From the IMG/VR virus record IMGVR_UViG_3300021255_002539, positions 160,001 through 224,000 of that record: DNA of 64,000 nucleotides. One strand, written 5' to 3'. This DNA comes from a virus (lineage: Duplodnaviria; Caudoviricetes). Shown here in pieces: positions 16,046 to 60,689 of the stretch. Position 1 is the first letter of the stretch, and each line of letters starts with the position of its first letter. The translations under genes and the position numbers were made by a program. The notes beneath the pieces are model-generated. The model worked only from the letters and a program-made list of their open reading frames with translations. It searched no databases and was not told where the DNA came from.

Positions 16046-16444
16046 TCACCTATTTAGGCTTCCGGGTGGTGCGGCAATCACATCGTCCACATCCAATATG
16101 AAGGACACGCCATATGACTTGTCGCAGTCGTTGCACTTGAACTCAGAAAGCAACTTGGCTCCAGAGAAATACCCCTCCTCTGGATAGTCGTCAGCATCCA
16201 CGAACTCGCAGTTGTGCCCACCGCAATATGGGCAGACATATGCTGGGTCGGTGGAGACATCACCAACACTTTCCTTGACAGACTTCTTACCGAACTTCTT
16301 GGCGGATTCCTTGAACTTCAGAATCTTGCCCTTCTCTGTCTTGAACAACTTGCCACTTTCTGACACATATTCAAGCTTTCCATACTTGCTTGTGAAATAC
16401 TTGGACTTCTCAAAAGCCTCTTTCGTTATGTTGAGTTTTTTCAT
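16046..16444 (-). CDS. 47-aa conserved leader fused to a Zn-ribbon cargo
   Basis: MKKLNITKEAFEKS...ILKFKE|S followed by CPYC..CNDC; late promoter 16489-16496. Confidence 0.75.
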   Translation of the reverse strand: MKKLNITKEAFEKSKYFTSKYGKLEYVSESGKLFKTEKGKILKFKESAKKFGKKSVKESVGDVSTDPAYVCPYCGGHNCEFVDADDYPEEGYFSGAKLLSEFKCNDCDKSYGVSFILDVDDVIAAPPGSLNR

Positions 16445-16503
16445 TGTTTGTATCCTCGTTCATTGTTGGTATCCTCGTTCATTGTTTGTATTTACCAATG
16501 TGT

Positions 16504-17520
16504 TCAAGCGAAGAATACCTCTGGCATCCCTGCTGTCTCAGAACGCAAGTTCTCCAAGGTCTTGTCAAGTTCCTCCTTGCCCTCAGCACCGATGTCCTTT
16601 GACACCGAGCCACCTCCGGGAAGGGTAATACCCTCGTATTTTCCCCTCACCTGACCTAGCATAATCTTGCAGTATGCCAATGTGAGCCTTTTCACATGCT
16701 CGTTGGCGTAGAGTTCGTAAAGTGGTGGCTCGATTTCGCACTCAAGCACCATTGGGACGCCCCATCTTGGGTCTGGTCTCCTCCCCAGTTCTGGGTATGG
16801 CCATAGGTCAGAGTGGTAGGGTGGTGGCGTCGAGCAGCATCCCTTTGGTTCGGGTATTATCACCAACCGCTTTGAGCTTCTGTTGAACTGCCAGTCAGGT
16901 TGGGTCGCCAAAACCCTTTGCGCCATCTTCTTGAACTCGATGAAGTTGTGGTAGGTTACGAACGATCCAGCCAAGTTGCCAGAGCCATAGTGTCCAGTGC
17001 TGGTTCTGTTGATCATCCAAGGCAGAACCACGCCCCAGCCAGAGAAGTCAATGCCATATTGGAGGTCGTTCACCTGGACGACATTCTCTCTGCTCAAGTC
17101 TATTCCAACACCTGGCACATATTGCCTAGAGGACTTCAATATGTACTTCTTCGGAAACGTGGCGTACTTGGTGTAGGTATACAAAGCATTCTGAATTGCT
17201 GCGTCAAAGTGGTTCTCCCTCAGCTCCACAGTCACCAAAGGATACCCAAGCATAGTCAGAACCCAGTCTATCAAGTCCCTCTTGCCCTTGATGGCAGGAT
17301 GTAGGAATGTGGACTTGTGGTCAACCTTCGCTTCCTCGTACTTGGGGTAGTCTTTGATTGGCGTTTCCTGTTCTGGGTGCAGATACGACACATGCTCGTC
17401 CTCCCGATTCTCGTGGATTTCCCTGTGGGTGTCGTCTGAGATGTCGGGCTTGATCTGCAGGATCTTGTTCAATCCAGCAATGTTGAGGTCAGGAAGCTTG
17501 TCTGTCGTCGTTATCTTCAT
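16504..17520 (-). CDS. Neck/head-completion protein, T4 gp13-like
   Basis: LIDWVLTMLGYPLVTVEL..AIQNAL; VKRLTLAYCKIMLGQVRGKYEGITLPGG. Confidence 0.85.
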   Translation of the reverse strand: MKITTTDKLPDLNIAGLNKILQIKPDISDDTHREIHENREDEHVSYLHPEQETPIKDYPKYEEAKVDHKSTFLHPAIKGKRDLIDWVLTMLGYPLVTVELRENHFDAAIQNALYTYTKYATFPKKYILKSSRQYVPGVGIDLSRENVVQVNDLQYGIDFSGWGVVLPWMINRTSTGHYGSGNLAGSFVTYHNFIEFKKMAQRVLATQPDWQFNRSSKRLVIIPEPKGCCSTPPPYHSDLWPYPELGRRPDPRWGVPMVLECEIEPPLYELYANEHVKRLTLAYCKIMLGQVRGKYEGITLPGGGSVSKDIGAEGKEELDKTLENLRSETAGMPEVFFA

Positions 17521-17538
17521 ATGCCAACCATCCTTGCC

Positions 17539-18225
17539 TTACATGTCAACTTCGGTTGAAACAGATATGTCAATCTTGAAGTCAAGTCCATAATATGGAT
17601 CATTAACCAATATGCTCTTGTAGTCCATCATATCAGGTTCCACTGTGTATTCATCACCATCGCACTTCTTCAATGCACTGACAACACAATCCCTGAACTC
17701 CCTAATCTCGTCAGAGTATTCGTCTTCTCCTTCCATGCACTTGAACCTGGGATTGGATTCTGTGCCTTCCTTGGTGAACTTCTTGGTGGATTCGGTTGTA
17801 TCCTGTTTTGGTCTACACCAATCTTGGGGATGCCATTCATCTTTCCTCCAAGAACCATGTGGACGATATGTTCCAGCATTTTCGTCTCCATATCTCCATT
17901 GTCCATCAATCCATTGGACATCTTTCACGACAAATGGATACCATTCATCGCCCTTTGGATATTTCCACTCCAATTCATCCCCAACCTTGAACTTGGGTTT
18001 CCCCTTGAACATCTTCTTCAATCCTTTAATGCCATCGTCCATTCTACTTCCAATATCAGAGAATAATCCCTCATTTACCTGCTTGGATTCCTTGAACATC
18101 AGAATCCTGCCCTTATTCGTCTTGAACACCTTGCCAGATTCACTGACATATTCCAACTCACCATATTTGTTCGTGAAGTATTGGCTTTTCTCAAAAGCCT
18201 CTTTCGTTATTGGTAGTTTCTTCAT
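17539..18225 (-). CDS. 47-aa conserved leader fused to SH3-like and acidic cargo modules
   Basis: MKKLPITKEAFEKS...ILMFKE|S; internal VNE|G, TTE|S, GTE|S; late promoter 18258-18265. Confidence 0.75.
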   Translation of the reverse strand: MKKLPITKEAFEKSQYFTNKYGELEYVSESGKVFKTNKGRILMFKESKQVNEGLFSDIGSRMDDGIKGLKKMFKGKPKFKVGDELEWKYPKGDEWYPFVVKDVQWIDGQWRYGDENAGTYRPHGSWRKDEWHPQDWCRPKQDTTESTKKFTKEGTESNPRFKCMEGEDEYSDEIREFRDCVVSALKKCDGDEYTVEPDMMDYKSILVNDPYYGLDFKIDISVSTEVDM

Positions 18226-18462
18226 TGTTTGATCCCATTATTGGTTGTGCCATTTGTTATTTACCAAAAAACAGTGCACAAAACGCCAGTTTGTCGTATT
18301 GGACATCTACATTGCTATTTACAATAGAACTTCAAAAATAGAAATAGGGGTTGGTGAAAAAAGTGTTTTCTGTGTAAATATATTTGAACTATGAATTTCT
18401 GAATGGGTATTCAGAATGGAATAGTACAAATAACTATAACTAGCAAAAAAGAGGTATAAATA

Positions 18463-21400
18463 ATGGCAACAAGAGATTTGAGAGCACCTGGTGTGTCTAT
18501 CATTGAACATGATCTCTCTGGCTACACCACGACCAACATTGGTACTTCCTGCCTCATCACTGGTTTTGCGCAGAAGGGCGAGGACCTGGAGCCGATTCAC
18601 ATCACGAACCGCTCTGCATGGCTGCTCAACTATGGTGCGCCAACCAACGAGGCCGAGGAGTACTTCTACAACGCAGGCATGGAGGTACTGAACCAAGGTG
18701 GCTTCCTTTACGCCGCGAAGATACCCTATTCAAACGACATGGCGGGAATCTACGCTGCATCCAAGTTCATAGTTGGAAAGAACCAGCCAATCTACAAGCA
18801 GAATGCAGATGGGTTCTTCATTGCTGACGAACTGAATGATGATGGAAGCGAGATTGAGATAATGGATGATACTGGGACAAATCCCCTTAGTCCAACATCT
18901 CCAGAGGGTCGCTTCATCCGCAACTACAGGGGCTTGAAGGACTTGGGCATCAACACGCTTCAGCTTATCGCTCCAGCAGCACAGGACTTCCTCTCGAAGG
19001 ACTTGGTTGACGAGTACGAGTGTGGCGAGACCAGGCCGAACTCGAATGTCATCTACTTGGTTGACAAGACCCGTGCAGTTTACACCCGCGCACCAGAGGT
19101 TGCCGACAAGCAGGACAACCGTGATTCGCGCTACTGCATTGGCATTGTCCCTGTGATAACCACGATGTGCAACACAGCATGGTTCCAGAAGAATGTGACT
19201 GGCTTGAAGGCAGATGTGGATGAACTCTACCAGCCAGTCCGCTCCCTCAAGACGATTGAGTTCCCAGCGGGCGCTGCAAGTGCTGCTGAGTACAAGGCTA
19301 CCAAGTTCGTGGATTCCGACCTCCACACGCCTTTGATGAAGGACGACAGGGCGTTTGCGACATCCCTCTCTGAGATGGCCGCGACGATTGCCCAGTCTTG
19401 CTTGACGAAGGGTAACTTGGTTGATGGCAAGTTCAAGCCCTACATCTGCAACGATGTGGCTGTCGTTGTGTTCAAGGCGTTCGTCTCCACCGAGGACGGA
19501 AAGCTGGAGTTCACCCCAGTCGAGACTTTCGTTGGCTCCCTGGACCCTGATGGCAAGGACGAGAAGGGCCGCACGACATTCATCGACAAGATCGTGAACG
19601 ACAACTCCGAGTACATCTACTGCTTCTCCAACTTGGCGAATCCACAGCAGGTTCTCAATCCTGACCATGGTTTCGTCGCTGGCTCTGATTCTGAGTATGA
19701 CGAGGTGAAGAAGGAGATCAAGAACGACTTGGAGTACGATGCTGCCTCCTTGTTCTCTGCATATGCGGCGAGGATGCTTGGTTTTGACCACAACGAGTCA
19801 TCTGACATGTCTGGTCTTGCTGCTCCAAGGTACTTCCCTGAGGAGGTTCATGACGAGGACGATCCCACAAGCGAGTTGTATGATTTGTCCAGACGGACAA
19901 TGGGTTCACTTCGCCAGTTCTACAACCAGGACGCCAAGCACCGAGTGTGTGTTTTGGACGAACTGGTCTATGGTGGCAAGTTGAAGGAGGATGACTTCAA
20001 GAAGATTGTTGGAGAAGAAATCTACGGATACATCTCTGGACAGTTGACCGACAAGTACCTCAACATCGTGGACAAGTTCATCACAAAGACCCCTTCGTTC
20101 AAGTACGACTTGGACGCCAACAACAACGAGGGTTCTGTGAACTTCACACTTGAACAGGAGAAGGACTACGACTACGACATCGAGAACTACTCCTACAAGT
20201 TCACGATGGGTGCCGACACAGACAACAAGCAAAACGATTGGAAGGATTGGGTCAACGCAATCTCTGGAATGAAACTTGGCGAGTTGAACATCCTCAACTC
20301 CACCGACTACCTCCGCGCCATCTACGACTTCGACGAGTTGGTTGAAGCTGATGTATTGGCGAAGATTGAGGATCCAAGTGGGAATGTCCCTGATCCAGAT
20401 TCAGAGGAATGGGCGATAATCCGCCAAAAGGCAATCCAGGCGTTGGTAATCAACTCCATCGAGAAGTCCGGCAGGTTCAAGCTCAACCTCCGCAACCTCA
20501 AGAAGGCGCAAATCAACATCGACAAGCTCGATGACGCATTCGTCGCCTCCCAGAGCGCAGAGAAGGAAACCGACAAGGCAATTGGCAAGAAGTATGTCGA
20601 AGACCTGTTCAAGTCCTACAACGACCTTGGACTTCTCTCTGGTATCAACTTCGTGGATGTCGACAAGTAGTCGTCCTCCTCTTCTTCAAGCAAGTCTGAT
20701 GGGGACATCCTCTCCAAGAAGGACGCGCTTGAGGCTAAGCTCGACGCAATCGTGAACATCGACACGAGCAAGCCACAGAAGATGAAGCCCCGTCAGGGAC
20801 ACGATACCCCAACTGGTGGAGACGAGGACCTGGACTTCCTGGAGAAGTACCTCCGCGTGAGGATGTACCTTGAGGCGCAGTTCAACGCGAAGAAGGCCGA
20901 CCTCCTCTCTGCGATTGCCAAGATAATGGAGGATTGTTGCTACGCGCAGCAACGCTATGTCGAGGCAATGCGCAACAAGGACGACTCCTCAATCATGTTG
21001 GGCTTCTACCCAGAGATGGCTGAGCCAATCATCACCTACACCACAATCGCGCAGTCCCTCAACAAGATACTCGACACGATGAAGAACATCAACGAGTGCG
21101 ACATAGATGTGATGTGCGACGCGGGTGTTTCCAACATCGCCCAGTTCGTCAAGCAGGTCTACGACCCAAGCGCAGACGATGGCGAGGATGTTGGTGGTCT
21201 CTACAACCCAGTGAAGTACTCCAGCTACTTCAAGTTCAACAAGAACACGGATCTCGCCTACTGGAAGACGATTGTGTACAAGTTCGACACATTCTGCAAG
21301 TACCGTGGCGACTGCATGTTCTGCACAGAGGGGCCTCGTGGAATGGTTCTGATTGGAAACAAGCAGGTCGTGCGCAAGACCAAGAAGGACACGAACATCG

Positions 21401-22083
21401 ACCTCAACATCTTGCCCTACTTGAGCAAGATCACAGGGTTCAACACCTCCTATGGCGCTGGCTACCTCAACTGGTACCGCACGATATCCGACTACACCGG
21501 AGACACCCTCTGGGTTCCACCATCCATCAAGGCAATGGGTACCTACATCCTCACGGACAAGCAGTACAATTGGTGGGATGCCCCAGCAGGAATGCGCCGT
21601 GGCGTAATCAACATGGCAGAGACCTCCTTCAACCCCAACAAGGATCAGGCGGGAGACATCTACGACGCCAACTGGAACTACGCAATACACTATGTCAACG
21701 ATGGCATCATCCAGGAGGGTCAGAAGACCTTCCAGACGAGGCAGAGTGCGCTTGACCGCGTGAATGTCCGCCGTCTCATTGGACGCATCAAGAGGTATGT
21801 GTACCACGCATCCAGGCAGTTCCTCTACGAGCCACACACTCAGGCAATCCGCGAGAAGTATGTCAAGACAATCACTCCATTCTTCCAGGACCTGATGAAC
21901 AGGGGTGGGTTGTATGGGTACAAGATTATTTGCGACAACACGAACAATACGCCGGAAGTTATCGACCGTAATGAACTCAGAGTGAAGATAGGCATCAAGC
22001 CAGTCAAGACCATAGAGTTCATAATAATCGACCTCTGTGTGTTGAACACCGGAGCGAGCTGGACAGAAATGGACGCGGTTTAA
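18463..22083 (+). CDS. Tail sheath protein, gp18-like, with a large insertion (1206 aa, 1 TAG=Gln)
   Basis: N-terminal APGVSIIEHDLS..GFAQKG; C-terminal WVPPS..WDAPAG..RG..GQKT..SALDRVNVRRL..CDNTNNTPEVIDRNEL..IKPVKTIEFI; same frame across TAG 20668. Confidence 0.92.
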
Positions 22084-22109
22084 TCCACACTCCATTGAAG
22101 TTCAACAAC

Positions 22110-22142
22110 AATCTGCCATCCTTTTGGGTGGCAGATTTGTTT
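22110..22142 (+). terminator. Intrinsic terminator after sheath
   Basis: AATCTGCCATCC-tttt-GGGTGGCAGATT followed by T-rich tail. Confidence 0.7.
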
Positions 22143-22167
22143 ATCCACAAGGTATATAATTGACAAT

Positions 22168-23259
22168 ATGACATTCAATATCATGACAGAGCCTGAATTC
22201 CCCTTGACGATAGAGGGTTTGCGTCAGAACAAGGAGTTCCTGAAGGAGCGTCGTGAGTCTGGCGATCCAAACTACCAATATCAGGGGAATTGCACAAAGA
22301 TGTTCGCCGAGAGGGTTTCTGACTTGTACTTGGACAGAGAATGGGATTGGGTCCGCAACCATGCCATGCCGAGCCCGATGGAGAAGCAACCATCTGAAGC
22401 AACCTTCAGAAACGAGATACGCACTTTGGTGCAGGAGCAAAGGAGTTGGAAGTCCAGGTCCAATCTGATCAAGGCGTTCCACCCCAGCGCGTTGGATGCA
22501 TCGAAGGGTGGATCGAAGTCGCCAAACGAGGGTTGGAGGCTGCTGCAGTCCAACAAGGACGAGTTCAGGAAGTTCTACTTGAACAGGTTGAGGTGTTCAG
22601 ATTGGTTCAACGAGCACAGGAGGGGTGAGGATGTCGAGGAAGAGCGGTGGACGAGTTTGCTGGAGGGTCGTGTTCCACCATTCATATACGCCATTGGACT
22701 CACCACATCTGGGAAATACCCAAATGTTGGCATGTTCAAACCCCATGCAGCGAAGTATCTGACGAACAAGTACCTGTCCAGGTTCGACGAGGTGTTTGAT
22801 CCATTCTCTGGGTTTTCTGGGAGATTGTTGGGAGTCGTTTCAACTGGGAGACGGTATGTTGGTAGGGACTTAAGCCCAATTGTCATAGAGGAGTCCAAGC
22901 GGTTGATGGAGCATGTCGGTCCAATGTTCGAGTTGAATGGTGTGTATCCTGACTATGATTTGGGTGTTGCAGACGCAACCCAGCCATCTGATGTCAAGCA
23001 TCAATCTCTGTTGACATGTTCGCCATATGGGAACTTGGAGCATTGGAATGGTGTTCCTGACTCCAACTTGAGTTGCGACGATTGGATTGACATTTGCATG
23101 AAGAACCATGTTTGCGAGAGATATGTGTTCGTCACTGATGGGAATATAGTCAAGTGGAGACCTTGGGTGAAGGAAGTTTGGCAGAACACTTGCCATTGGG
23201 GTTCAAACGAGGAATGCGTGGTCGTTGTTGATGGAGATGGAGGAAAGGTGGAGAAATGA
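22168..23259 (+). CDS. Putative DNA amino-methyltransferase (SAM-dependent)
   Basis: VFDPFSGFSGRLLG..YVGRD SAM motif I; LLTCSPY..LEHW (SPPY-like). Confidence 0.7.
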   Translation: MTFNIMTEPEFPLTIEGLRQNKEFLKERRESGDPNYQYQGNCTKMFAERVSDLYLDREWDWVRNHAMPSPMEKQPSEATFRNEIRTLVQEQRSWKSRSNLIKAFHPSALDASKGGSKSPNEGWRLLQSNKDEFRKFYLNRLRCSDWFNEHRRGEDVEEERWTSLLEGRVPPFIYAIGLTTSGKYPNVGMFKPHAAKYLTNKYLSRFDEVFDPFSGFSGRLLGVVSTGRRYVGRDLSPIVIEESKRLMEHVGPMFELNGVYPDYDLGVADATQPSDVKHQSLLTCSPYGNLEHWNGVPDSNLSCDDWIDICMKNHVCERYVFVTDGNIVKWRPWVKEVWQNTCHWGSNEECVVVVDGDGGKVEK

Positions 23260-24326
23260 TCGCAACCAGTTCAAGATTCAACGCCAGCAGAATTGAGATT
23301 GGGGATGGCATGTTGGGTAAATGGAGCAAATTCCTGGTTCTGCCCCCTGTTCTGGATTTACACGATTGCTTGAACAAAAACCCCTTGCCGGACCACATAA
23401 CATGTTGCCCCAGGGGGTTGGAGGGCATGTGCAACGTCATATACTCGTCGTTTGGAATGATGAATGCCCCAATGTTGGATGTAGTGGACTTGAACGACGA
23501 TGCCGCAGATGTAAATGTGGGTGGCAGAAGTGGATGCAAGGATGTGGCGTTGGGGTTTTCTGGTGGATTGGATTCGGTGTACCAAGCCATACGGTTGCAG
23601 GAACTGGGCTACACTGTCCATTTGGTGTTCGTGCGGGGGATGAACACATACGAGGGTGGTCAGGCGTTCAAATACGCCAAATCCATCTCTGACGAACTGG
23701 GGATGGAATTGATTCCTGTGAACATGAAGAAAGCCTGGGCGAAAAGTGGCAATCCATATAGGCAAGGTTGGCCAGAGAACCCAATCAAGAACGAGGTCAT
23801 AATGGCCTTGCTCGTGGACATTTGCCTGTCAAATGGCTATTCCAGCATCTCGTTGGGGGACGACTTGTCGTTGTCTCTGGCAGATTCGGTTCCTGGGGTC
23901 AACACCACCGATGCACACGAGGTAACAGAACATTTCTTGTCGTTCATCCATTCGCGTTTTCCACATTTGGGGTTCTTGCCCATTCCAAAGGAGGATGGAA
24001 AGGACAAGAGGTTGGTGAAGACGATTCAAAGTGGGTTGGGTGATTTGTACTACAGTTGCGTGATGCAAGGTAGATTCAACAAGTCGTTCAAGTCTCGGGT
24101 TGAGGGCAAATATGGTGTGAAACTCCTGGGGAACAACTGTGGCATGTGCAGAAAGTGTTGTATGCACAACCTAATCCTGCACTACATCGGCAACCGCCCA
24201 TTGCCAGAGGAGTATGTGGAATATTGCTGGGAGAAGATGTATTCAACGGGAAAGAACGCAGACGCCAAATTCTTCGCCAAGGAATTGCCATTGGAGACCA
24301 GGATACACAACTTGTTCAACTATTGA
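23256..24326 (+). CDS. QueC-like PP-loop ATP pyrophosphatase
   Basis: GFSGGLDS PP-loop; ENPIKN; YSC..CGMCRKC Zn motif; ATGA overlap with methyltransferase. Confidence 0.75.
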   Translation: MIATSSRFNASRIEIGDGMLGKWSKFLVLPPVLDLHDCLNKNPLPDHITCCPRGLEGMCNVIYSSFGMMNAPMLDVVDLNDDAADVNVGGRSGCKDVALGFSGGLDSVYQAIRLQELGYTVHLVFVRGMNTYEGGQAFKYAKSISDELGMELIPVNMKKAWAKSGNPYRQGWPENPIKNEVIMALLVDICLSNGYSSISLGDDLSLSLADSVPGVNTTDAHEVTEHFLSFIHSRFPHLGFLPIPKEDGKDKRLVKTIQSGLGDLYYSCVMQGRFNKSFKSRVEGKYGVKLLGNNCGMCRKCCMHNLILHYIGNRPLPEEYVEYCWEKMYSTGKNADAKFFAKELPLETRIHNLFNY

Positions 24327-37428: not shown

Positions 37429-38394
37429 TCACTTTCCATATCTAATGATGGAATCATCGTCAAAAGCATTATCTGAAATTTCTGGGTTTCCGAGGATTCT
37501 GACCTCTTTTAGTTTTTCGCAATCAGCAAATGCAAGAGTTCCAATGTATGTTACACTCTTTGGTACCGTCACGGATGTTAATTCAGGACAGCACTAAAAC
37601 ATCTAACTATGAATCCTTTCTATATTGTTAGATAGTTTAACATTCATTAAACTAGAACATCCAGCAAATTCGGCACATCCCATTTCCATTACACTATTTG
37701 GAATCTTTATGCTCGTAAGGCTACTGCAATCATGAAAAGTATAACCAATAAACTTAATTACACTATCTGGAATTACTACATTTTTCAAATTTTTGCATTT
37801 CTCAAACGCGCACAATCCTATCTCCTCGACCCCATAGGGAATAATCACTTTTTCAAGACTCTCGCAATATCTGAACGCCTCTTGCCCAATGCTTTTTACG
37901 CTGTCAGGAATAATTACTTTGGTGAGACTTTCACAAAGTGCAAATGTACCTTGTCTAATGTATTGTATTCCTGATGGAATCGTTATTTTTTTAAGGCTTT
38001 TGCAACAACAAAACGCCATCCTGCCAATATTTGATACATTGGGTGGTATTTCTACTTTGATGAGATTATTGCAGTCATAAAACGCATAATCTCCGATACT
38101 TTCCACCGAGTCTGGAATTACAACTTTGCTCAAACGGTAGCACTCGTAGAACGCTTTGTTACCAATGGATTTGACTCCGCTTGGAATTACAGCAATTCTT
38201 CTCTTTCCATTATATTTCACCAAAACACCATTGTCAATATCAAATTCACCATCAGACTCGTTAAACTTCAGTATTTTTCCCTTGTCCGTCTTGAACAGAT
38301 TTCCTGATTCGGAGACATATTCAAGCTTGCCGTACTTCTCCGTGAAGTATTGGCTTTTCTGAAAAGCCTCCTTCGTTATGTTCAATTTCTTCAT
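37429..38394 (-). CDS. 47-aa conserved leader fused to a BspA-type (LRR_5) leucine-rich repeat protein (321 aa, 2 TAG=Gln)
   Basis: Repeats V.IP.SV..IG..AF..C..L continue through TAG 37603 and 37594 to TGA 37429; AT-rich cargo. Confidence 0.85.
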
Positions 38395-38428
38395 TGTTTG
38401 TTTCCTCAATTGGTTATTACTATTTACA

Positions 38429-43487: not shown

Positions 43488-44558
43488 ATGAAAGTGTCAG
43501 AGACAACGAAGAAGATATACGAAGGGATATCCAACATCCTCAAGGAGAATGGACAGCCCCTCACCAAGGCTCAGGTGTATGCCATCGAGAGCATGGTCGA
43601 GACGGTCGAGGATGCCACCGAGAAGAGGTGTTGCGAGGTCACTGAGGGCATCTTGAAGAAGAAGGACGCATTGATTGCCGAGGCCAACCAGAGGGTGGCC
43701 GCGTGCCAGGGCACTGTTTCTGAAGCCACCATGCAGAAGGTGAACGAGATGGTGGAGAGCAGGATAGCGCAGTTGAAGAAGGACATTCCACAAGTGCTGG
43801 ACTACGCGAAGATGAAGAAGCTCGAGTCCTGCATGGCTACAATCAAGGAATGCGTTGGATACAAGACCGACGAGCAGGTTGAGCGCGTGGCAAACGAGTC
43901 CGCCAAGATGCTCAAGTCCACCAAGTCCCTTATCGAGACACAGGCCAAGACGATTTCTGAGAAGGTTGCTTCGCTTGCTGAGAGTGCTTCGAAGATGAAG
44001 GCACTACAGGAACAGGTGAGGCAGATGAAGCAAACAATAGACGCAAAGGAAAAACAGATAGTCGAAAGCACGAAGACGAACACAGAGCTGGTCAATCAGA
44101 ACCAGAATCTGCAGAAGAAGATAGAGGAAAGCAAGAAGATAACCGAGAGCATAGAGGAAAAAAGAAAGGCAGAGGCATTGAGGTATTATTTGGAGGAAAA
44201 GATATCGAAGTACCCGAAGTACGAGGCAACTCTTCTCAGAAAGCATTTCCAGAACGCCAAGTCCAGGGCAGAGATAGACGAGAACTTCTCCAAGGCACTT
44301 TCGATGGTGCAGGAGAAGCGGGACACGATGAGGACGGTTCAGGCTATACCAGTGGCGAAGGTTCCAGCCACGCAGGTGAACGAGAACAATGGGACCGAAA
44401 AGCAGATTTCAGGTGAAACTATTGTCAAAGAAAGTGGTGGGGCAAACAAAGATGCTTCCCTCTCGATGTATGACGATGGCTTCGTTGAGGTTGAAGCAGA
44501 CTTCGACGAAGACCCAATCAGCAACGAGGAGATGCAGGCGTGGATGTCCCAACTTTGA
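43488..44558 (+). CDS. Prohead core/scaffold protein, gp22-like
   Basis: Coiled-coil rich in xxE|S/A/T sites, immediately upstream of the MCP; late promoter 43453-43460. Confidence 0.75.
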   Translation: MKVSETTKKIYEGISNILKENGQPLTKAQVYAIESMVETVEDATEKRCCEVTEGILKKKDALIAEANQRVAACQGTVSEATMQKVNEMVESRIAQLKKDIPQVLDYAKMKKLESCMATIKECVGYKTDEQVERVANESAKMLKSTKSLIETQAKTISEKVASLAESASKMKALQEQVRQMKQTIDAKEKQIVESTKTNTELVNQNQNLQKKIEESKKITESIEEKRKAEALRYYLEEKISKYPKYEATLLRKHFQNAKSRAEIDENFSKALSMVQEKRDTMRTVQAIPVAKVPATQVNENNGTEKQISGETIVKESGGANKDASLSMYDDGFVEVEADFDEDPISNEEMQAWMSQL

Positions 44559-44599: not shown

Positions 44600-46198
44600 A
44601 TGTTCAAGACAAATTCAGAATACCAGAAGAGGTTGCTCAAGCGTTGGGCACCCGTCCTGGAGAAGGGCGCAGCGATCGACTCCGTCGAGAAGAAGCTCGT
44701 CCTGGCGCAGGTTCTCGAGAACACCCGCAAGGAGTTCACGAAGAAGAACCTGTTCACTGAGGCTGCCCCAACTGCAGTCCAGAACACGATAGACAACCGC
44801 GACCCAGCATATCAGGCTCCAATTCAGGGCAAGGGCGTTCTCACTCAGAACGACTACATCCTCCCCAATGTTGTGATGCCAATGCTCCGCCGTATCTTCC
44901 CAACCCTCATGGCTCACGAACTCGTTGGCGTCCAGGCAATGACTGGTCCTACGGGCTATGTGATGGCTCTCCGCGCGATTGCTGCCAACCCAGAGCGTGT
45001 TGGTTTGCCACAGGGCTATGAATTCGGCTATGGCGATCACGGCCGCACGAACCAGAGCGTCTTCACGGGCGACACCGCAGTGAACACGAATGTTCCTGTG
45101 GACTCCACGCAGTCCCTCCAGAACAAGCTCTATGGCGAGAATCCTGCCCTTGACGACATCGGCATGTTCATCAATGGCACTTCCTACTCCGGCCGTGGCG
45201 TTCCTACGGGCCGTGGCGAGGGCTATGCACATGGAACACCTGCGACATACAAGGGACTTGACGGCAAGGATTATCCTTACATGAATGGTGCAGCAGGATA
45301 TGCTGGTGGCTATGCTGGCGATCCCAACAGGGCACTTGACCCAACATTCGGTCACTGGAGGAACAACACCTATCCTCAGGCCACCATCAAGTTCGAGAAG
45401 CGTTTGGTCGCAGCTGAGACGCGCAAGCTCGGCTCCGAGTGGACGCCAGAGGACGCAGAGGACCTTGAGGCAATGCAGGGAATCGACATCGAGACCGAGA
45501 TGACGAACCTCATCTCCTATCAGCTCGGTGCCGAAATCGACCAGCAGATCAAGGAGTCCATGCTCTACGCTGCATGGGGTACCGCAAAGGTTCTCGATGT
45601 CTCCAAGCTCGATGGTTTGGACCAGATGGGTCGTATCGCAGCAATGCTCACAGTCGTGACGCGCGAGGCGAACGAGATCTCCATCAAGACCCGCCGTGGC
45701 GCAGGCAACTTCGTCCTCGCTTCGACGACGGTTTGCTCCTGCCTCCAGCAGCTCGGTACATCCAAGCTCGTGAGCGACGGCAAGACGATGCCTTCCGTCC
45801 CTGCCTCCAGCATTGGCGCAATGACCAAGGAAGGTCTCATCAACGATGGGCGTCAGCTCCTCGTCCGTGACACCAATACCTTCGGTTCCTACGCTCTCGT
45901 TGGCTACAAGGGAACGCAGGCTGGCGATGCGGGCATTATTTATTGTCCGTACATCCCGGTGACGTTGTATAAAGCAATTAAGCCTGAGAATGGTCTCTCG
46001 GTCATCGGTGCCCGTACGCGCTACGGTCTCGTCGACAACCCATTCGATGCTGACAACTACTACAGCCTTATCAAGTTCACAGGTTTTGACCGCGGGTATA
46101 CGCTTGGCAACTCTGAGCGCACCTTCTTCGGAACCGTCGAGGCTGCTGAGGCTTCCGACAGCACGAACTTCAACTTCCGCAGCGGCCTGGTTGGCTAA
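44600..46198 (+). CDS. Major capsid protein, T4 gp23-like (532 aa)
   Basis: KRWAPVLE..LEN; RR.FP.L.A.ELVGVQAMTGPTG; V.A.TRKL...WT.E..EDL; GYKG..DAG..YCPY.P; TRYG...NPF. Confidence 0.95.
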   Translation: MFKTNSEYQKRLLKRWAPVLEKGAAIDSVEKKLVLAQVLENTRKEFTKKNLFTEAAPTAVQNTIDNRDPAYQAPIQGKGVLTQNDYILPNVVMPMLRRIFPTLMAHELVGVQAMTGPTGYVMALRAIAANPERVGLPQGYEFGYGDHGRTNQSVFTGDTAVNTNVPVDSTQSLQNKLYGENPALDDIGMFINGTSYSGRGVPTGRGEGYAHGTPATYKGLDGKDYPYMNGAAGYAGGYAGDPNRALDPTFGHWRNNTYPQATIKFEKRLVAAETRKLGSEWTPEDAEDLEAMQGIDIETEMTNLISYQLGAEIDQQIKESMLYAAWGTAKVLDVSKLDGLDQMGRIAAMLTVVTREANEISIKTRRGAGNFVLASTTVCSCLQQLGTSKLVSDGKTMPSVPASSIGAMTKEGLINDGRQLLVRDTNTFGSYALVGYKGTQAGDAGIIYCPYIPVTLYKAIKPENGLSVIGARTRYGLVDNPFDADNYYSLIKFTGFDRGYTLGNSERTFFGTVEAAEASDSTNFNFRSGLVG

Positions 46199-46359: not shown

Positions 46360-47449
46360 CAATAAAGACACTATTGACATATGGATACGACATACGACAA
46401 TCTTACTGACAAGGAATTGATAGATGCCGTCAATTCGTTGAATCTACATCCAAAAACCTTTCGCGTGGTATTGTCCAACAGGCACCCAGAACTATATAGG
46501 GAGTTGACGAACCGCACGTCCTTCTTGAATGACTCGTATACCGACACAAAGGAGGTGTCTATATTCTCAAGGATATACTGCCTTGAACATGGATTGACTA
46601 GTGCTCCAATGTGTGCAAGGGAAGGCTGCCCCAACCATGTGCACTGGAACAACGACAACAGGACATTCCATAGGTTCTGCTCCAACAAATGCAAGGCGAA
46701 CGACAGCAATTGGCAGATGGAAGTCAAGCAAACCACTGTTGAACACCATGGGGGAGTTGGATTCGCGTCGCCCGAACTTGCTGACAAGGCACATTCCACA
46801 TTCTTTGCCAAAACGGGATACCATCATCAAATGCACGATCCCAACACAATCATGAAGATAATGGAGACCAATAACCATAGATATGGCAACGACTGGGCTA
46901 TTGCCTCTGAGTCAGTGAAGAACAAGATTGCCTCTACATGCATGGATAGGTTTGGGTACGACAACTATGCAAAGTCCCCAGAATACCAATGTAGAAAGCG
47001 GCACAAGTTCCATTCCAAGAAGTACCCTGGATTGACATTTGACTCCAAGTGGGAGGTCAAGGTCTACGAGTTCTGTCGGGACAACGACATTCCAGTTGAG
47101 TATTCGCCAGAAGTTGCGTTCCCATACGAGTACGATGGTGGAATACACTACTACCACCCTGACTTCAGAATAGAGGGGAGGTTGTATGAGGTGAAAGGCG
47201 ACAACTTCTTCAGGATCAACGAATCAACTGGCCAAGAGGAGATGTTCTGTCCATATAGATACGACTATTGGTCAGACGAGAAGTACGAGTGGATGTGTGG
47301 TCTATACAAAGCCAAGCACCAGTGCATGATTGGAAATGGCATTGTGATTCTTCGGGGTACTGACATAAGGAAGATGGGAAAAACGAAGTCTGGAAGAACC
47401 ATCACATTCCCCCAGACCTCTGACCACAGCCAATAAAGACACTATTGAC
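46360..47449. repeat. 19-bp direct repeat (46360-46378, 47431-47449) bracketing the endonuclease gene
   Basis: caataaagacactattgac occurs twice. Confidence 0.85.
46381..47436 (+). CDS. Free-standing homing-endonuclease-like protein (Zn finger, TxxxxYG repeats, PD-(D/E)xK)
   Basis: C..C..FCSNKC; T...[HRK].G repeats; FDSKWE..YHPDF..YEVKG. Confidence 0.75.
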   Translation: MDTTYDNLTDKELIDAVNSLNLHPKTFRVVLSNRHPELYRELTNRTSFLNDSYTDTKEVSIFSRIYCLEHGLTSAPMCAREGCPNHVHWNNDNRTFHRFCSNKCKANDSNWQMEVKQTTVEHHGGVGFASPELADKAHSTFFAKTGYHHQMHDPNTIMKIMETNNHRYGNDWAIASESVKNKIASTCMDRFGYDNYAKSPEYQCRKRHKFHSKKYPGLTFDSKWEVKVYEFCRDNDIPVEYSPEVAFPYEYDGGIHYYHPDFRIEGRLYEVKGDNFFRINESTGQEEMFCPYRYDYWSDEKYEWMCGLYKAKHQCMIGNGIVILRGTDIRKMGKTKSGRTITFPQTSDHSQ

Positions 47450-56234: not shown

Positions 56235-56272
56235 ATTGGCGTAGTGAGGAGAAGTCTAAAGGAGCAGACGCC

Positions 56273-56695: not shown

Positions 56696-56699
56696 CACG

Positions 56700-57065: not shown

Positions 57066-57088
57066 ATAACTTGAAAGAGGATACAACC

Positions 57089-57397: not shown

Positions 57398-57398
57398 T

Positions 57399-57860: not shown

Positions 57861-57869
57861 GGTGATGTA

Positions 57870-58130
57870 TTAGAATGTGGAGTGGATCATAATTGGGCCA
57901 TACTCTCCAGCATATGGCAGGCTGCGTAGGGTATTGTACCCAATCCAGTCATATGCCTCCTCGTGGGTCATCCCCTCTTTCACCAGACATTCCGCGAACT
58001 TGTCGTAGTCATAGACAACATGGTGGCCATCGCAGGTCAATCCCACTATGGCATCTTGGTATTGATCGGGCGTGTCTCCGAGATAGACCAAATCCTCGTT
58101 CTGGTTCTTCAGTTGCTCAATGTCAATCAT
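57870..58130 (-). CDS. Conserved-looking phage hypothetical protein
   Basis: DAIVG..VVYDY.K..GMT.EEA..WI.YN..P; ATGA overlap. Confidence 0.65.
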   Translation of the reverse strand: MIDIEQLKNQNEDLVYLGDTPDQYQDAIVGLTCDGHHVVYDYDKFAECLVKEGMTHEEAYDWIGYNTLRSLPYAGEYGPIMIHSTF

Positions 58131-58518
58131 TGCTTGTCTCTCTCCTTTCAACTTCCAGACAAATTGTCTTTCCGTCAGATGGAATTCCCTTCCATCCAAG
58201 AATCTCATATGGCTGTCCGATGTCCACTTTCGCCACTATGAAGTCTGTGTCGAATATCTTGTATTGCTTCCCTTCAAGTTCAATGTCCACCCCAACTGCC
58301 TCTGTCATGACGACATCATTTGGTTTCAGGTTGATCTTCTTGAACTGGCCATTACCCTTCACCCACTTGACCTTGTAGAGCTTGAGGTTGTCCTTGGAGA
58401 GCCTGTCGTCAAGCTTCGTGGATGCAAGGAATGTGTTGCCAAAGTCAGCAACGCTGACATCAGCGTTCCAGCATTCCTCGCAGATTATCCTGTTGTCTCT
58501 GGTTATCTCGATGTCCAT
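58123..58518 (-). CDS. GroES-like co-chaperonin (single domain)
   Basis: NRIICE..V..V.G..LKPNDVV..GVDIELEGKQYKIFDTDFIVAKV. Confidence 0.65.
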   Translation of the reverse strand: MDIEITRDNRIICEECWNADVSVADFGNTFLASTKLDDRLSKDNLKLYKVKWVKGNGQFKKINLKPNDVVMTEAVGVDIELEGKQYKIFDTDFIVAKVDIGQPYEILGWKGIPSDGKTICLEVERRETSND

Positions 58519-58530
58519 GTTGTATTGTAA

Positions 58531-59274
58531 TTAGTTCTCAAGAGTTTCGGCATTCGTGTCGTCCGAGAAATGTGCAGAATGCACGAAATATGTGGGACTC
58601 AACTTGAAAATATGCCTATGCGTGTTCAATGTGGTATTGAAGTAGACATCAACATAGATGTAGTCTGTCTTGTCCAATGTCTTGTTGGTTATTTTCCATT
58701 TGCTTATTATGCCGGAGTAGGATTTTTTCAACTCTTTCAATCCCTTGTCGATGAACTTCTTGGTCTTGCTCATGCTGAATGGCTCTTTTGCCGATTCACG
58801 GATTCCATTTATTGACGAGATGCATTGTTCCTGAATGTCGCAGTCTGCCATCATGGTCTTGTCCAACGCATTTTCCTTGTATGGAACATGGAGATTGTGC
58901 TGCCTTTTCGCAGATTCGCTCAATGACTTCGCCTTTTTCCTGTCAACATCCAAAAGACGCATAATCCTATTGACATGCTTGGTCGAGTATTCATTGAACG
59001 GAAAGTCAGTTATTGCCATTTCCCTTTCCGTGTTTTTGAGGGTCTTGATTCTCTCGGACTTGCTTGGCATCTTGGCGTCCGAAGCAGTGTTCTTGGTGTG
59101 AAGACCCTCTCTCAGCAAAATGGATTCCAATTCCTTCGTGATGTCCTTTGCAAGCACATCCCTGTTCTTGCGCAGAAGTTCCATGAACTCGTCCAGAGCT
59201 TTCCTGGACTTGCTTTTGTCTTGTTTCAATGACTTCTTGGCTTTCTTGCTCGTTTTGGTGGGTTTCTTGTTCAT
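58531..59274 (-). CDS. Basic hypothetical protein
   Basis: Lys-rich ORF in a co-oriented run. Confidence 0.6.
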   Translation of the reverse strand: MNKKPTKTSKKAKKSLKQDKSKSRKALDEFMELLRKNRDVLAKDITKELESILLREGLHTKNTASDAKMPSKSERIKTLKNTEREMAITDFPFNEYSTKHVNRIMRLLDVDRKKAKSLSESAKRQHNLHVPYKENALDKTMMADCDIQEQCISSINGIRESAKEPFSMSKTKKFIDKGLKELKKSYSGIISKWKITNKTLDKTDYIYVDVYFNTTLNTHRHIFKLSPTYFVHSAHFSDDTNAETLEN

Positions 59275-59293
59275 GTTTGCGTGATCCTTTCTG

Positions 59294-59896
59294 TCAATCG
59301 TTGACCTTCGCTATGATGGCGTCTGTCTTGTAGATGAGAATTGGCTTGTCTGGATCCAGGCTGGAATCCCCCTTGAAGCCATGCAGGGTGTCGTGTTCGT
59401 CCTTCGTGAGCAGAACCTTGTCGCCAACCTTGAACTTGGATGCGTTGTCCTCTGCCCCATCGTATGGAGGGGTGATGGACTTGATTACGCCGATGTGCAT
59501 CTCGTCTGATGTTGGGATTATGAAGCCACCACTCTTGTTTTCGTTGGACTCATTGACCTCCTGCACTATGCATCTGCCACCCATTGCCCTGTACTTGGTC
59601 TTCTCTGGGTTGGATTCCATTATCAGTCCTGTGTACCTTAGAACCGCTATTGGTTGGGTGTGGTAGAATGTGGACAGGGTGTCGTAGAACGCCCAGTCCC
59701 CCTCCTGCAAATTGGTCTCGGACTTCGCCTTGTCTCCAATCTTGAGTATCTGGGCAAATCCAACCCGAAGGTTTCTAAGCGCGTCGTCCCCAATCACGAA
59801 GCCGGATGACTTCGTTGACAATGTGTCGTTGTCCTTGATCCTAATCACCACGCAGTCTGAAGCTGGCTCGATGTTCTCGTTGTCGAAATGTATCAT
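59294..59896 (-). CDS. Tandem two-domain GroES-like co-chaperonin (200 aa)
   Basis: IEPASDCVVIR..SSGFVIG..ILKIG..EGD and MGGRCIVQ..SGGFIIP..GVI..FKVGDKVLL..DAIIAKV. Confidence 0.75.
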   Translation of the reverse strand: MIHFDNENIEPASDCVVIRIKDNDTLSTKSSGFVIGDDALRNLRVGFAQILKIGDKAKSETNLQEGDWAFYDTLSTFYHTQPIAVLRYTGLIMESNPEKTKYRAMGGRCIVQEVNESNENKSGGFIIPTSDEMHIGVIKSITPPYDGAEDNASKFKVGDKVLLTKDEHDTLHGFKGDSSLDPDKPILIYKTDAIIAKVND

Positions 59897-59984
59897 ATGA
59901 TGTAGCCTTTCACCTTTCAATTATACGAAAACGCGCCCCCTATTGAAAGGAAGCGCGTTTCGCCTTGTGATGTGTCGGTTTGTC

Positions 59985-60689
59985 TCACATTTCGTCTTCT
60001 GGCAAGTCCTCGTAGTAATCCATGCCGTTTTCCAATGCGGCATTCTCCATATACTGCCAAAACTCGTCCTTGATTTGCTCTCCCTTCCAATCGTCGTCAA
60101 GAACCTCGTCCAAATTGGGGCCAAGGTACTTCGCTATTTCATCATCCCCCCAACCTGCGCTTGACAAGTAGTCGTAGATGTCATATGCAATTCTCTGCAT
60201 TGTCTTGTCGTCGAGTTGGCTTGCAGCCATTGGTTCGGGCAGTGATTCGTAGTCGTACCTCGTGATTGTCACGCCCTTGTAGGTGAATTCCTTTTCCATG
60301 TCATCAAAGGACTCCTTGAGCATTTTACCCTATACCATCTTGAAGTCAGCAACTTTATTGCCATTCTGACTTATGACAATGAATTCGTCGTCTTCAACCC
60401 AAATAGCTTTTCCGTTACATTTACGGGCAATGAAATTTCCATTTCGTTCAATCCACTGTTTACATGACTTCATGGAATTAAAAGTACGGATTTGGTCTTC
60501 ATTCCAATTTTCGCATGATGCAAGGCAGGTAATGTGTCCCATATCATTGGATTCCTTGAACATCAGCACTTTGCCTTTGTTGGTCTTGAATACCTTGCCA
60601 CTTTCTGACACGTATTCAAGTTTGCCGTATTTGCGCGTGAAGTAGTTGCTTTTTTCAAAAGCTTCCTTCGTTATTGGTAGTTTCTTCAT
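59985..60689 (-). CDS. 47-aa conserved leader plus two cargo modules (234 aa, 1 TAG=Gln)
   Basis: MKKLPITKEAFEKS...VLMFKE|S; TAG 60330 then GKMLKE|S and a second module. Confidence 0.75.

What the first reader, a model, noticed from the sequence alone, without database searches (positions are those of the whole stretch)
16046..60689. A 47-aa leader cassette fused to four unrelated cargoes at dispersed loci
Seen: MKKL[NP]ITKEAF[EQ]KSxYFTxKYG[KE]LEYVSESGx[LV]FKTxKG[KR][IV]L[KM]F[KN]E|S at 16304-16444, 18085-18225, 38254-38394 and 60549-60689. Each follows a late-promoter-like box and an A-rich initiation region (..AAACA-ATG or ..AAAAC-ATG). Similarity stops at E|S, many DNA differences are synonymous, and the cargoes (Zn ribbon, SH3-like+acidic, BspA LRR, two unknown modules) are unrelated and often more AT-rich. 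Inference: a portable promoter+RBS+packaging domain that captures foreign ORFs and routes them into the head, where the prohead protease frees them. It is much longer than the T4 CTS and may be a folded scaffold-binding domain. It would amount to a modular effector-delivery system.
Basis: partly seen in the sequence, partly recalled or inferred. Interest (0 to 1): 0.86.

Follow-up and report, generated by a model that had tools for sequence, protein, structure and literature searches.

The report
Shared 47-residue cargo leader in megaphage
A 414-kb uncultured phage with a T4-type head puts the same strongly conserved 47-residue N-terminal mini-domain, ending in the cut motif of its head-maturation protease, on nine otherwise unrelated late proteins, most likely to load them into the capsid and cut them free, though packaging has not been shown.

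Summary
The leader (MKKLxITKE…FKE|S) heads 4 genes in the window and 9 in the 414-kb genome. Two complete relatives carry 9 and 6 copies. A profile search of 1.84 billion proteins found 377 clusters. The leader starts at residue 1 in 125 of the top 150, and similarity stops after E46–S47. Synonymous sites between paralogues are near saturation (median dN/dS 0.12), so selection acts on the protein.

AlphaFold predicts a small β-α-β-β-β fold (pLDDT 86) with no known match. The phage has a T4 gp21-type protease and a gp23-type capsid protein with LFTE|A, where T4 has FLTE65|A. Residue 47 is S, G or A in 138 of 150 members.

Cargo modules that follow the leader directly in one protein sit in others behind a recurrent spacer, E|STKKFGKKFxKE|S. 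These look like polyproteins.

Best reading (0.6): a long, folded version of the T4 capsid-targeting sequence, removed by the prohead protease. Packaging, cleavage and the docking partner are inferred. A mobile "promoter cassette" and capture of foreign genes are not supported.

The scan found short CTS-like leaders on other phages before. It found this 47-residue leader only in this genome.

The parts
16046..16444 (-). Leader gene A, 132 aa. Leader is residues 1-46 (16307-16444) and ends KFKE|S. A spacer AKKFGKKSVKE|S follows (sites at 16307-16315 and 16271-16279), then a Cys-rich Zn-ribbon-like module.
16489..16495 (-). GTAAATA late-promoter-like box, 51 nt upstream of the ATG of gene A.
17539..18225 (-). 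Leader gene B, 228 aa. Order: leader (MFKE|S), a β-rich module, the spacer TTE|STKKFTKE|G (17767-17799), then a second module GTESNPRFKCME.... In other family members that second module follows the leader directly.
18258..18264 (-). GTAAATA box 39 nt upstream of gene B. A second box lies at 18316-18322.
37429..38394 (-). Leader gene C, 321 aa when TAG is read as Q (TAGs at 37603-37605 and 37594-37596). Leader (KFNE|S) followed by BspA-type LRR repeats.
38421..38427 (-). GTAAATA box 33 nt upstream of gene C.
59985..60689 (-). Leader gene D, 234 aa when TAG is read as Q (TAG at 60330-60332). Leader (MFKE|S), module 1, then KMLKE|S (60312-60320) and an acidic module 2. Only a one-mismatch box (ACAAATA, 60705-60711) lies upstream.
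44600..46198 (+). Major capsid protein of T4 gp23 type (PF07068, E 4e-72). Its N-terminal propeptide is homologous to T4's and ends in LFTE54|A, which is conserved in two related genomes.
43488..44558 (+). Candidate scaffold: a 356-aa coiled-coil protein directly upstream of the capsid gene, behind a GTAAATA box. It has conserved QIVE|S and TIVKE|SGG and an acidic tail. It has no family match, so the assignment rests on position and composition only.

Best explanation
The 47-residue leader is an enlarged, folded counterpart of the phage T4 capsid-targeting sequence (CTS).

Proposed mechanism: late in infection, nine genes (four in the window) are made as precursors. Each consists of a basic β-α-β-β-β mini-domain, a cut site Φ-K/N-E|S/G/A, and one or more mostly acidic cargo modules. 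Extra modules are joined by a short basic spacer that is itself flanked by E|S sites. The leader docks the precursor into the assembling prohead core. The gp21-type prohead protease then cuts after the glutamates, which frees the modules inside the head and breaks up the leader and spacers. The freed modules would travel with the DNA into the next host cell, as T4 IPI*, IPII, IPIII and Alt do.

Shown here: the family, its N-terminal position, the sharp boundary, purifying selection on the protein, the predicted fold, the T4-type protease and capsid protein with a T4-like site, the spacer code, and the late-type promoter motif.

Inferred: docking in the prohead, the identity of the partner, the actual cleavage, and ejection into the host.
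For: (1) Size of the family. There are 9 copies in the genome and 9 and 6 in two complete relatives of 418 and 434 kb. 377 clusters reach E<1e-3 among 1.84e9 representatives, and the leader sits at residue 1 in 125 of the top 150.

(2) Selection on the protein. Median dN/dS is 0.12 with near-saturated synonymous sites.

(3) A sharp boundary with a protease-like motif. F44 and E46 are nearly invariant. Residue 47 is S in 112, G in 20 and A in 6 of 150. Variants with one extra residue keep F-V-K-E|S.

(4) The enzyme and a reference site are present. PF03420 (T4 gp21 family) scores 45 bits, and the ELxHP and S(S/T)RGLG blocks align with T4 gp21. The gp23-type capsid protein has a homologous propeptide ending LFTE|A, against T4 FLTE65|A, and this is conserved in both relatives. 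T4 gp24 reads LLRE10|S in the T4 record, and its 10-residue N-terminal peptide is known to be removed (PMC9958956).

(5) Polyprotein grammar. 38 cargo modules lie directly behind the leader in one protein and internally in another. In 23 of them the internal copy is preceded by Glu at exactly the projected position. Several of the other 15 have an E|S/A site 1-3 residues away. The spacer E|S-T-K-K-F-G-K/R-K-F-x-K-E|S/G occurs 37 times in 25,209 family residues. In 128,275 residues of this genome's proteome it occurs once, and that one is gene A. Some members use partial leader copies as internal joints.

(6) Late expression is plausible. GTAAATA occurs 118 times against about 50 expected. 53% of copies lie 15-120 nt upstream of a same-strand start, against 5% for random positions. 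It precedes the scaffold, protease and sheath genes and 6 of the 9 leader genes (exact GTAAATA upstream of A, B, C, E, H and I; D has a one-mismatch box; F and G have none). The leader genes sit among neck, sheath, endolysin and GroES-like genes.

(7) A second, T4-like short leader class (MKWxKLYKE|S and similar) also ends in E|S on late genes. It is found in 14 of 108 late genes, against 2.7 expected by shuffling. One such late gene encodes an ArdA anti-restriction domain.

(8) The cut sites fall in low-confidence, probably flexible stretches of the model of gene B (residues 47-73 and 142-170). The model itself is poor, with mean pLDDT 56.

(9) Precedent. In T4 the CTS is the only conserved part of a diverse set of internal proteins, and it suffices to package foreign proteins (PMC3012670, PMC9026906). 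Giant phages use longer propeptides with several cut sites (PMC5694885).
Against: - There is no direct evidence that any member is in a virion or is cut. No cultured phage carries the leader, and no proteomic data were available.
- T4 needs only about 10 residues for targeting, and this same genome has short CTS-like leaders. Why a 47-residue, highly conserved, predicted-folded domain is needed is therefore unexplained. Strong conservation of the whole domain would also fit a function kept in the mature protein.
- Cargo C (BspA LRR) is a type more often found on surfaces.
- Φ-x-E|S is a short motif that is common by chance.
- The divergent H-type leader ends LALE|G, not F-K-E|S.
- The fold is a prediction from a shallow alignment of 74-91% identical sequences.
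- The reading of cargoes C, D, F and G depends on TAG=Gln. This is supported by protein continuity, but no CUA tRNA was detected.
Confidence: 0.6

Rival explanations
1. The leader is a retained functional domain: a common N-terminal docking, oligomerisation or nucleic-acid-binding module that stays on the mature proteins. These could be inside or outside the virion. The conserved KES would then be only the end of the domain.
For: The whole 47 residues are strongly conserved, not only the end. A compact fold is predicted. The net charge is +3 to +9, which would suit binding to DNA or RNA or to acidic partners. T4-type targeting needs far fewer residues (PMC9026906).
Against: The last three conserved residues (K-E-S/G/A) lie outside the predicted last strand. 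They are kept even when a residue is inserted. The same E|S/G sites bracket internal spacers between modules, which a simple domain end does not explain. No match to any known binding domain was found.
Confidence: 0.18
2. The conserved unit is itself the product. The precursor would be a polyprotein whose first product is a small basic head-internal protein or set of peptides, for example DNA-condensing, with the variable modules riding behind it. Targeting might come from only the first ~9 residues, MKKLxITKE, which resemble the short leaders.
For: Residues 1-9 match the short-leader pattern M-K-x-x-x-Φ-x-K-E. The invariant loop V-S-E29|S-G and the end F-K-E46|S would release basic peptides of 17-20 residues. 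Gene H ends in 5-8 Arg-rich 13-residue repeats, each closing with V-x-E|S and conserved in four orthologues. This suggests the phage does make basic peptides by cutting.
Against: Residue 10 is Q or R in 115 of 179 members, which is a poor fit to the S/G/A seen after other sites. Residues 2-4 are part of the predicted sheet. There is no evidence that the peptides are retained.
Confidence: 0.12
3. The leader is an external virion anchor. It would fasten variable display or adhesin modules to the capsid, neck or fibres, as the conserved N-terminal anchors of multi-spike phages or the capsid-binding domain of decoration proteins do.
For: Genes A and B flank the neck/adaptor gene and adjoin the sheath gene. 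Cargo C is a BspA-type LRR. A conserved N-terminus with a variable C-terminus is the usual layout of receptor-binding proteins.
Against: Cargoes are small (median 105 aa), mostly acidic, and have essentially no Pfam families. The I-type cargo has hydrophobic membrane-like segments and the H-type has Arg-rich repeats. The multi-module spacer grammar with E|S sites is not a feature of fibre anchors.
Confidence: 0.07
4. It is a DNA-level recombination cassette: a conserved 5' segment kept only because it lets genes be shuffled, with no protein function.
For: Cargo turns over quickly between related genomes, and modules are recombined in many orders.
Against: Paralogous leaders are only 55-87% identical in DNA and their synonymous sites are near saturation, while the protein is conserved. 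That is the opposite of what a DNA homology cassette predicts. Flanking DNA is at background identity beyond about 20 nt.
Confidence: 0.03

Closest known systems
Phage T4 capsid-targeting sequence (CTS) of internal proteins IPI, IPII, IPIII and Alt, removed by prohead protease gp21 (Mullaney & Black 1996, as cited in PMC9026906, PMC3012670 and PMC5694885)
   Same: Both are N-terminal tags shared by otherwise unrelated late proteins and end in Φ-x-Glu. The phage has a gp21-family protease and a gp23-family capsid protein with the same type of site. Cargo is diverse and turns over fast. This genome also carries T4-length short leaders.
   Different: This leader is 47 residues rather than about 10, and is predicted to fold as β-α-β-β-β. 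It is strongly basic and far more conserved than its length would need. There are 6-9 genes per genome and hundreds of cargo clusters. Cargo is often multi-module with a dedicated cleavable spacer, and is mostly acidic, whereas related T-even phages carry basic IP-like proteins (PMC9026906). Function is not shown.
Long N-terminal propeptides of head and ejection proteins of giant phages SPN3US, phiKZ and 201phi2-1 (PMC5694885)
   Same: Both are long propeptides on several paralogous inner-head proteins, with several cut sites after Glu. A targeting role is proposed, and paralogues share conserved N-termini.
   Different: Those phages use the S80 protease family and an A/S/G-x-E motif. Their propeptides are 80-130 residues long and belong to paralogous protein families. 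Here the protease is of T4 S77 type and one compact leader is fused to unrelated cargoes.
Viral polyproteins with spacer peptides cut at both ends (general principle)
   Same: Modules are separated by a short conserved spacer flanked by two sites of the same protease motif (E|STKKFGKKFxKE|S).
   Different: Nothing like this has been described for tailed-phage head cargo in the papers I could search. Cleavage here is inferred from sequence only.
Polymorphic toxins and effectors with a conserved N-terminal trafficking domain and variable C-terminal modules
   Same: The architecture is the same: a conserved delivery domain, a sharp junction and a rapidly exchanged C-terminus.
   Different: The delivery route would be a phage capsid, not a bacterial secretion system. 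No toxin domains were recognised in the cargo.

Membership tests
T4-type capsid-targeting sequence (CTS) system | The tag sits at the extreme N-terminus of the precursor. | tested here: met
   All 9 genes of this genome start with the leader. The leader is at residue 1 in 125 of the top 150 representatives.
T4-type capsid-targeting sequence (CTS) system | The tag ends in the prohead-protease motif: a hydrophobic residue, any residue, then Glu, followed by a small residue. | tested here: met
   The end is F-K/N/R-E or F-V-K-E. The next residue is S, G or A in 138 of 150.
T4-type capsid-targeting sequence (CTS) system | The phage encodes a gp21-family (MEROPS S77) prohead protease and a capsid protein processed at the same kind of motif. 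| tested here: met
   PF03420 scores 45 bits and aligns with T4 gp21. The gp23-type capsid protein has LFTE|A against T4 FLTE65|A. Presence of the motif was tested; cleavage was not.
T4-type capsid-targeting sequence (CTS) system | The tag is shared by otherwise unrelated proteins. | tested here: met
   The nine cargoes show no mutual similarity. The 148 representative cargoes fall into 49 similarity groups.
T4-type capsid-targeting sequence (CTS) system | The tag is a short peptide of about 10-20 residues. | tested here: not met
   The leader has 47 residues and is predicted to fold (pLDDT 86). It is therefore filed as a variant that works like a CTS, not as a homologue of the T4 CTS.
T4-type capsid-targeting sequence (CTS) system | The tag is necessary and sufficient for incorporation into the prohead core and is absent from mature virions. 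| not testable with these tools
   This needs virion mass spectrometry or reporter-packaging experiments.
T4-type capsid-targeting sequence (CTS) system | The genes are expressed late, together with head genes. | tested here: inconclusive
   The GTAAATA motif is enriched upstream of starts and is shared with the scaffold, protease and sheath genes.
Giant-phage (phiKZ/SPN3US) long propeptides | S80-family protease with an A/S/G-x-E motif, and propeptides that belong to paralogous inner-body protein families. | tested here: not met
   The protease matches the T4 S77 family. The residue three before the cut is hydrophobic (F or V), not A, S or G. The cargoes are not paralogues.
Known folded domains (DNA-binding, enzymatic) | A significant sequence or structure match of the leader to a described family. 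| tested here: inconclusive
   The leader has no Pfam or PHROG family. The best Foldseek match in the PDB has E 0.86, the best VIA-align Z is 2.7 (half of a glyoxalase-type βαβββ unit), and BFVD gives E 0.15. A 47-residue model gives these searches little power.

The most novel reading that the evidence does not exclude
These rumen-type megaphages run a two-channel, programmable protein-loading system. One channel is a short T4-like tag. The other is a separate, folded 47-residue docking domain with its own cleavable spacer grammar. The second channel lets strings of small, mostly acidic effector modules be swapped freely, loaded into the head as polyproteins, cut into units by the prohead protease, and injected to disarm host defences. 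The leader would bind a specific, still unidentified core component, so it would be a new, transplantable packaging handle.
Probability: 0.3. Interest if true: 0.8.

Novelty: new variant of a known kind. Interest (0 to 1): 0.62.

Why it matters
If the reading holds, it extends T4's thirty-year-old "pack me into the head" principle in three ways. The signal becomes a folded domain. Single proteins become spacer-jointed polyproteins. Three internal proteins become hundreds of interchangeable cargo modules in uncultured megaphages.

That would mark out a large, unexplored pool of proteins that act in the first seconds of infection, probably against host defences. It would also define the protease's cutting rule for annotating such genomes. 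And it would offer a candidate tag for loading foreign proteins into large phage heads.

It is also directly testable. One virion or virome proteomics experiment, or a protease-plus-fusion assay in E. coli, would settle cleavage at E46|S47.

Tried and rejected
- Complex prediction of leader plus candidate scaffold. It was re-sent with window sequences and search-result sequences only. The verdict was "no answer", score 0.00. This is neither support nor evidence against binding.
- Fold searches of the leader model in PDB (Foldseek and VIA-align wide), BFVD and the ESM Atlas gave nothing significant. The Atlas feature search had no usable hit.
- Pfam and PHROGs on the four window proteins found only the LRR of cargo C. 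The remaining hits were weak, mostly Zn-ribbon hits for cargo A. Pfam on 150 representatives gave five families, each matched by one or two members.
- No DNA match of window 16000-24000 and no leader match by protein search were found in 50,697 cultured or deposited phage records.
- The "leader-only" 48-aa gene (genome 248159) and the "pseudogene" with an in-frame stop (97142) were rejected. Both stops are TAG, and both genes read on into cargo under TAG=Gln.
- A suppressor tRNA was looked for. ARAGORN on the whole genome finds 28 tRNAs and a tmRNA but no CUA anticodon.
One look-up of an encoding contig gave no usable context.
- Cleavage after E9 as a conserved site was considered and judged unlikely, because residue 10 is mostly Q or R.

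Full report
**1. The observation**

The window is bases 160001-224000 of a 414,060-bp virus record with direct terminal repeats and 48% GC. tblastn E-values are 1e-20 to 1e-25, and nothing else in the window scores better than E 0.3. A profile built from the copies finds nine in the genome. The other five are at genome 518, 97142, 100326, 235359 and 248159.

Two of these looked defective under the standard code: a 48-aa "leader-only" ORF and a copy with an in-frame stop. Both stops are TAG. Read as Gln, both continue into cargo. In the second copy the TAG falls at leader position 12, where other copies have E or Q. The same reading extends two window genes:
- Cargo C becomes 321 aa, with its BspA-type LRR repeats continuing through two TAGs.
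- Cargo D becomes 234 aa, with a second module that follows ...KMLKE|S.

Earlier notes of this scan had proposed TAG=Gln for this genome. I find protein continuity in its favour. I could not find a CUA tRNA.

**2. It is a protein family, not a DNA repeat**

Between the nine paralogous leaders the proportion of synonymous differences is 0.4-0.9 and that of non-synonymous ones about 0.1-0.15, giving a median dN/dS of 0.12. Ungapped DNA identity by region:

| Region | Identity |
|---|---|
| Leader | 71% |
| 20 nt before the ATG (GAGGA plus an A-rich spacer) | 58% |
| Further upstream | 28% |
| Downstream of the leader | 30% |

The copies are therefore old and are held together by selection on the protein. 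That argues against a recently mobile promoter-plus-leader DNA cassette.

**3. Spread**

A profile search of 1.84 billion representative proteins gave 377 clusters at E<1e-3, of which 354 were below 1e-10. Of the 150 listed, 125 have the leader at residue 1. The other 25 have extra residues before the Met of the leader. These may be miscalled starts or real internal leaders.

IMG/VR holds two complete relatives, of 418 and 434 kb, with 9 and 6 copies, plus fragments. No cultured phage record has the leader.

Over 179 members, about 30 of the 47 positions are nearly invariant. Residue 47 is S in 117, and from residue 48 on no residue exceeds about 20%.

The cargoes have a median length of 105 aa. 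73% are clearly acidic (net charge below -0.05 per residue), against 18% in a crude proteome of this genome, and none is basic. The leader itself carries a median charge of +8. Pfam recognises almost nothing in them. The nine cargoes of this genome are mutually unrelated.

Two divergent leader subtypes have cargoes conserved across the related phages, while cargoes behind the canonical leader turn over:
- H-type: an acidic, then Cys-rich, then Arg-rich cargo.
- I-type: a 415-residue cargo with hydrophobic Ala/Gly-rich segments.

**4. Structure**

AlphaFold2 on a 45-sequence alignment predicts strand 2-4, helices 8-13 and 15-21, and strands 24-26, 33-36 and 41-44, with mean pLDDT 86. The conserved K-E-S tail lies after the last strand.

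No significant structural neighbour was found. The best hits are a half glyoxalase-type βαβββ unit at Z 2.7 and Foldseek E 0.86. The alignment is shallow in diversity, so the fold is a reasonable prediction, not a fact.

A model of the whole of gene B is poor (pLDDT 56). It repeats the leader's secondary structure and puts both junction regions (residues 47-73 and 142-170) in its least confident stretches.

**5. The head-maturation context**

The genome encodes a T4 gp21-family protease (PF03420, 45 bits; ELEHP and STRGLG align with T4's ELNHP and SSRGLG). It also encodes a gp23-family major capsid protein in the window (PF07068, E 4e-72).

The capsid protein's N-terminal propeptide is homologous to T4's and carries LFTE54|A. 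T4 gp23 carries FLTE65|A at a comparable position, and T4 is known to lose those 65 residues (PMC9958956). The site is conserved as GLFTE|AAP in both related genomes. T4 gp24 reads LLRE10|S, so E|S is a genuine T4-type junction.

The protease's own N-terminus contains LITE|S and LVKE|S. The coiled-coil protein directly upstream of the capsid gene, the probable scaffold, has conserved QIVE|S and TIVKE|SGG.

**6. A cutting grammar inside the family**

This is the strongest new evidence. I took every case where a cargo module lies directly behind the leader in one protein and internally in another, 38 cases in all. In 23 of them the internal copy is preceded by Glu at exactly the projected position. 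Several of the remaining 15 have an E|S/A site 1-3 residues away.

The internal joint is usually a stereotyped basic spacer, E|S-T-K-K-F-G-K/R-K-F-x-K-E|S/G, flanked by a site on each side. It occurs 37 times in 25,209 residues of the family. In the 128,275 residues of this genome's crude proteome it occurs once, and that one is gene A.

Gene B shows the layout in the window: leader, a β-rich module, TTE|STKKFTKE|G, then the module GTESNPRFKCME.... In three other members that last module follows ...FKE|G of the leader directly. Some members use a partial second leader (...VSENGKLLKFKE|S) as the joint.

This is how polyproteins with a dedicated protease look. It is hard to explain if the leader's end were only a domain boundary.

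**7. Timing and neighbourhood**

GTAAATA occurs 118 times in the genome, against about 50 expected. 53% of copies lie 15-120 nt upstream of a same-strand start, against 5% of random positions. The motif precedes the scaffold, protease and sheath genes and 6 of the 9 leader genes (exact GTAAATA upstream of A, B, C, E, H and I; D has a one-mismatch box; F and G have none). It resembles the T4 late box TATAAATA; that comparison is from my own knowledge.

Genes A and B flank a neck/adaptor gene next to the sheath gene. C adjoins an endolysin-like gene. D adjoins a GroES-like co-chaperonin.

**8. A second, short leader class**

Among 108 ORFs behind GTAAATA, 14 start with M-x(2-9)-Φ-x-E-S/G/A. Shuffling predicts 2.7, with a maximum of 7 in 200 shuffles. 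Other genes show no excess (11 of 354 against 8.4 expected). Many of the 14 read MKWxKLYKE|S or similar, which is close in form to the T4 CTS.

One late gene of this class carries an ArdA anti-restriction domain about 110 residues behind MKFKKIVKE|A. That recalls T4's packaged anti-restriction protein IPI* (PMC3012670). First readers had listed these short leaders; I confirm the enrichment.

The first nine residues of the long leader (MKKLxITKE) fit the same pattern. Residue 10 is mostly Q or R, so a conserved cut there is doubtful.

**9. Interpretation**

The best-supported mechanism is a CTS-like system. The leader docks late precursors in the prohead core, and the gp21-type protease cuts after Glu at the end of the leader and at the spacers. 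It may also cut at the invariant loop V-S-E29|S-G. Extra cuts of that kind would chop the propeptide into small pieces for clearance, as proposed for T4 and SPN3US (PMC5694885). The released modules would then stay in the head and enter the next host with the DNA.

What is shown is the anatomy and its statistics. Docking, cutting and delivery are inferred.

The main open point is why a 47-residue, highly conserved fold is needed when short tags exist in the same genome. Possible answers:
- a different docking partner or location in the head;
- a stoichiometric basic counter-ion for the acidic cargo;
- a product with a function of its own.

I put 0.6 on the CTS-like model and 0.18 on a retained functional domain. 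The remaining rivals get 0.12 (the leader as a product in its own right), 0.07 (an external anchor) and 0.03 (a pure DNA cassette).

**10. Comparison and novelty**

It works like the T4 CTS. It is not a member in the narrow sense, because it is not a short peptide and there is no detectable homology. It also differs from the phiKZ/SPN3US propeptides, which involve the S80 protease, an A/S/G-x-E motif and paralogous cargo. I found no description of this leader or of the spacer grammar in the searchable literature.

This scan has already reported short CTS-like leader families in other uncultured T4-like phages, so the general theme recurs. This 47-residue leader was noted only in this genome. 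I rate it a new variant of a known kind.

Noticed in passing
L008:1501-2529 (genome 235359-236387, outside the window); orthologues L032, L033, L035, L036: Leader gene H ends in 5-8 tandem 13-residue Arg-rich repeats (such as SIRRRRLAKKVME). Each closes with V-x-E|S, and they are conserved in four related phages with varying repeat number. If cut, they would give protamine-like basic peptides inside the head.
   Followed up: partly
window 52188 (+), 53864 (+), 55161 (+), 24869 (-), 39379 (-); also genome 16006, 95935, 150312, 233898, 390060: A second, short leader class (MKWxKLYKE|S, MKWIKMNE|S, MKWKKLVSE|S and similar) sits on late genes. It is about five-fold enriched over shuffled controls among ORFs behind GTAAATA.
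   Followed up: partly
L045 (genome 120720-121781, minus strand): An ArdA anti-restriction domain (PF07275, 94 bits) lies in a 358-367-aa ORF behind a GTAAATA box. A short leader MKFKKIVKE|A sits near the N-terminus. This is a candidate packaged anti-restriction protein.
   Followed up: partly
window 37594-37605, 60330-60332; sheath gene 18463-22083; genome-wide: In-frame TAG codons in late genes read as sense. LRR repeats, the sheath domain and the leader itself continue across them. ARAGORN finds 28 tRNAs and a tmRNA (genome 362-371 kb) but no CUA anticodon.
   Followed up: partly
genome-wide; in the window e.g. 16489-16495, 18258-18264, 38421-38427, and upstream of 43488 and 18463: GTAAATA is a strongly start-proximal motif: 118 copies, 53% of them within 15-120 nt upstream of a same-strand start. 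It is probably the late promoter element.
   Followed up: yes
L010:1426-2163 (genome 349588-350325): The prohead protease gene lies about 145 kb from the capsid gene. It has one in-frame TAG, and its N-terminus carries LITE|S and LVKE|S, which are possible self-processing sites.
   Followed up: partly
window 46381-47436 (+): A homing-endonuclease-like ORF (phrog_3339) lies directly downstream of the major capsid gene.
   Followed up: no
window 59294-59920 (-): A 208-aa protein with a GroES-like C-terminal half (phrog_3188) lies next to leader gene D. It may be the counterpart of T4 gp31.
   Followed up: no
P0001, P0016, P0075 (metagenomic family members): These members carry a second, partial leader copy (...VSENGKLLKFKE|S) inside the protein, used as a joint between modules.
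   Followed up: partly
genome 244478-248137 (1220-aa ORF upstream of leader gene G): A weak internal match to the middle of the leader (E 1.8, residues 349-367). Its significance is unclear.
   Followed up: no
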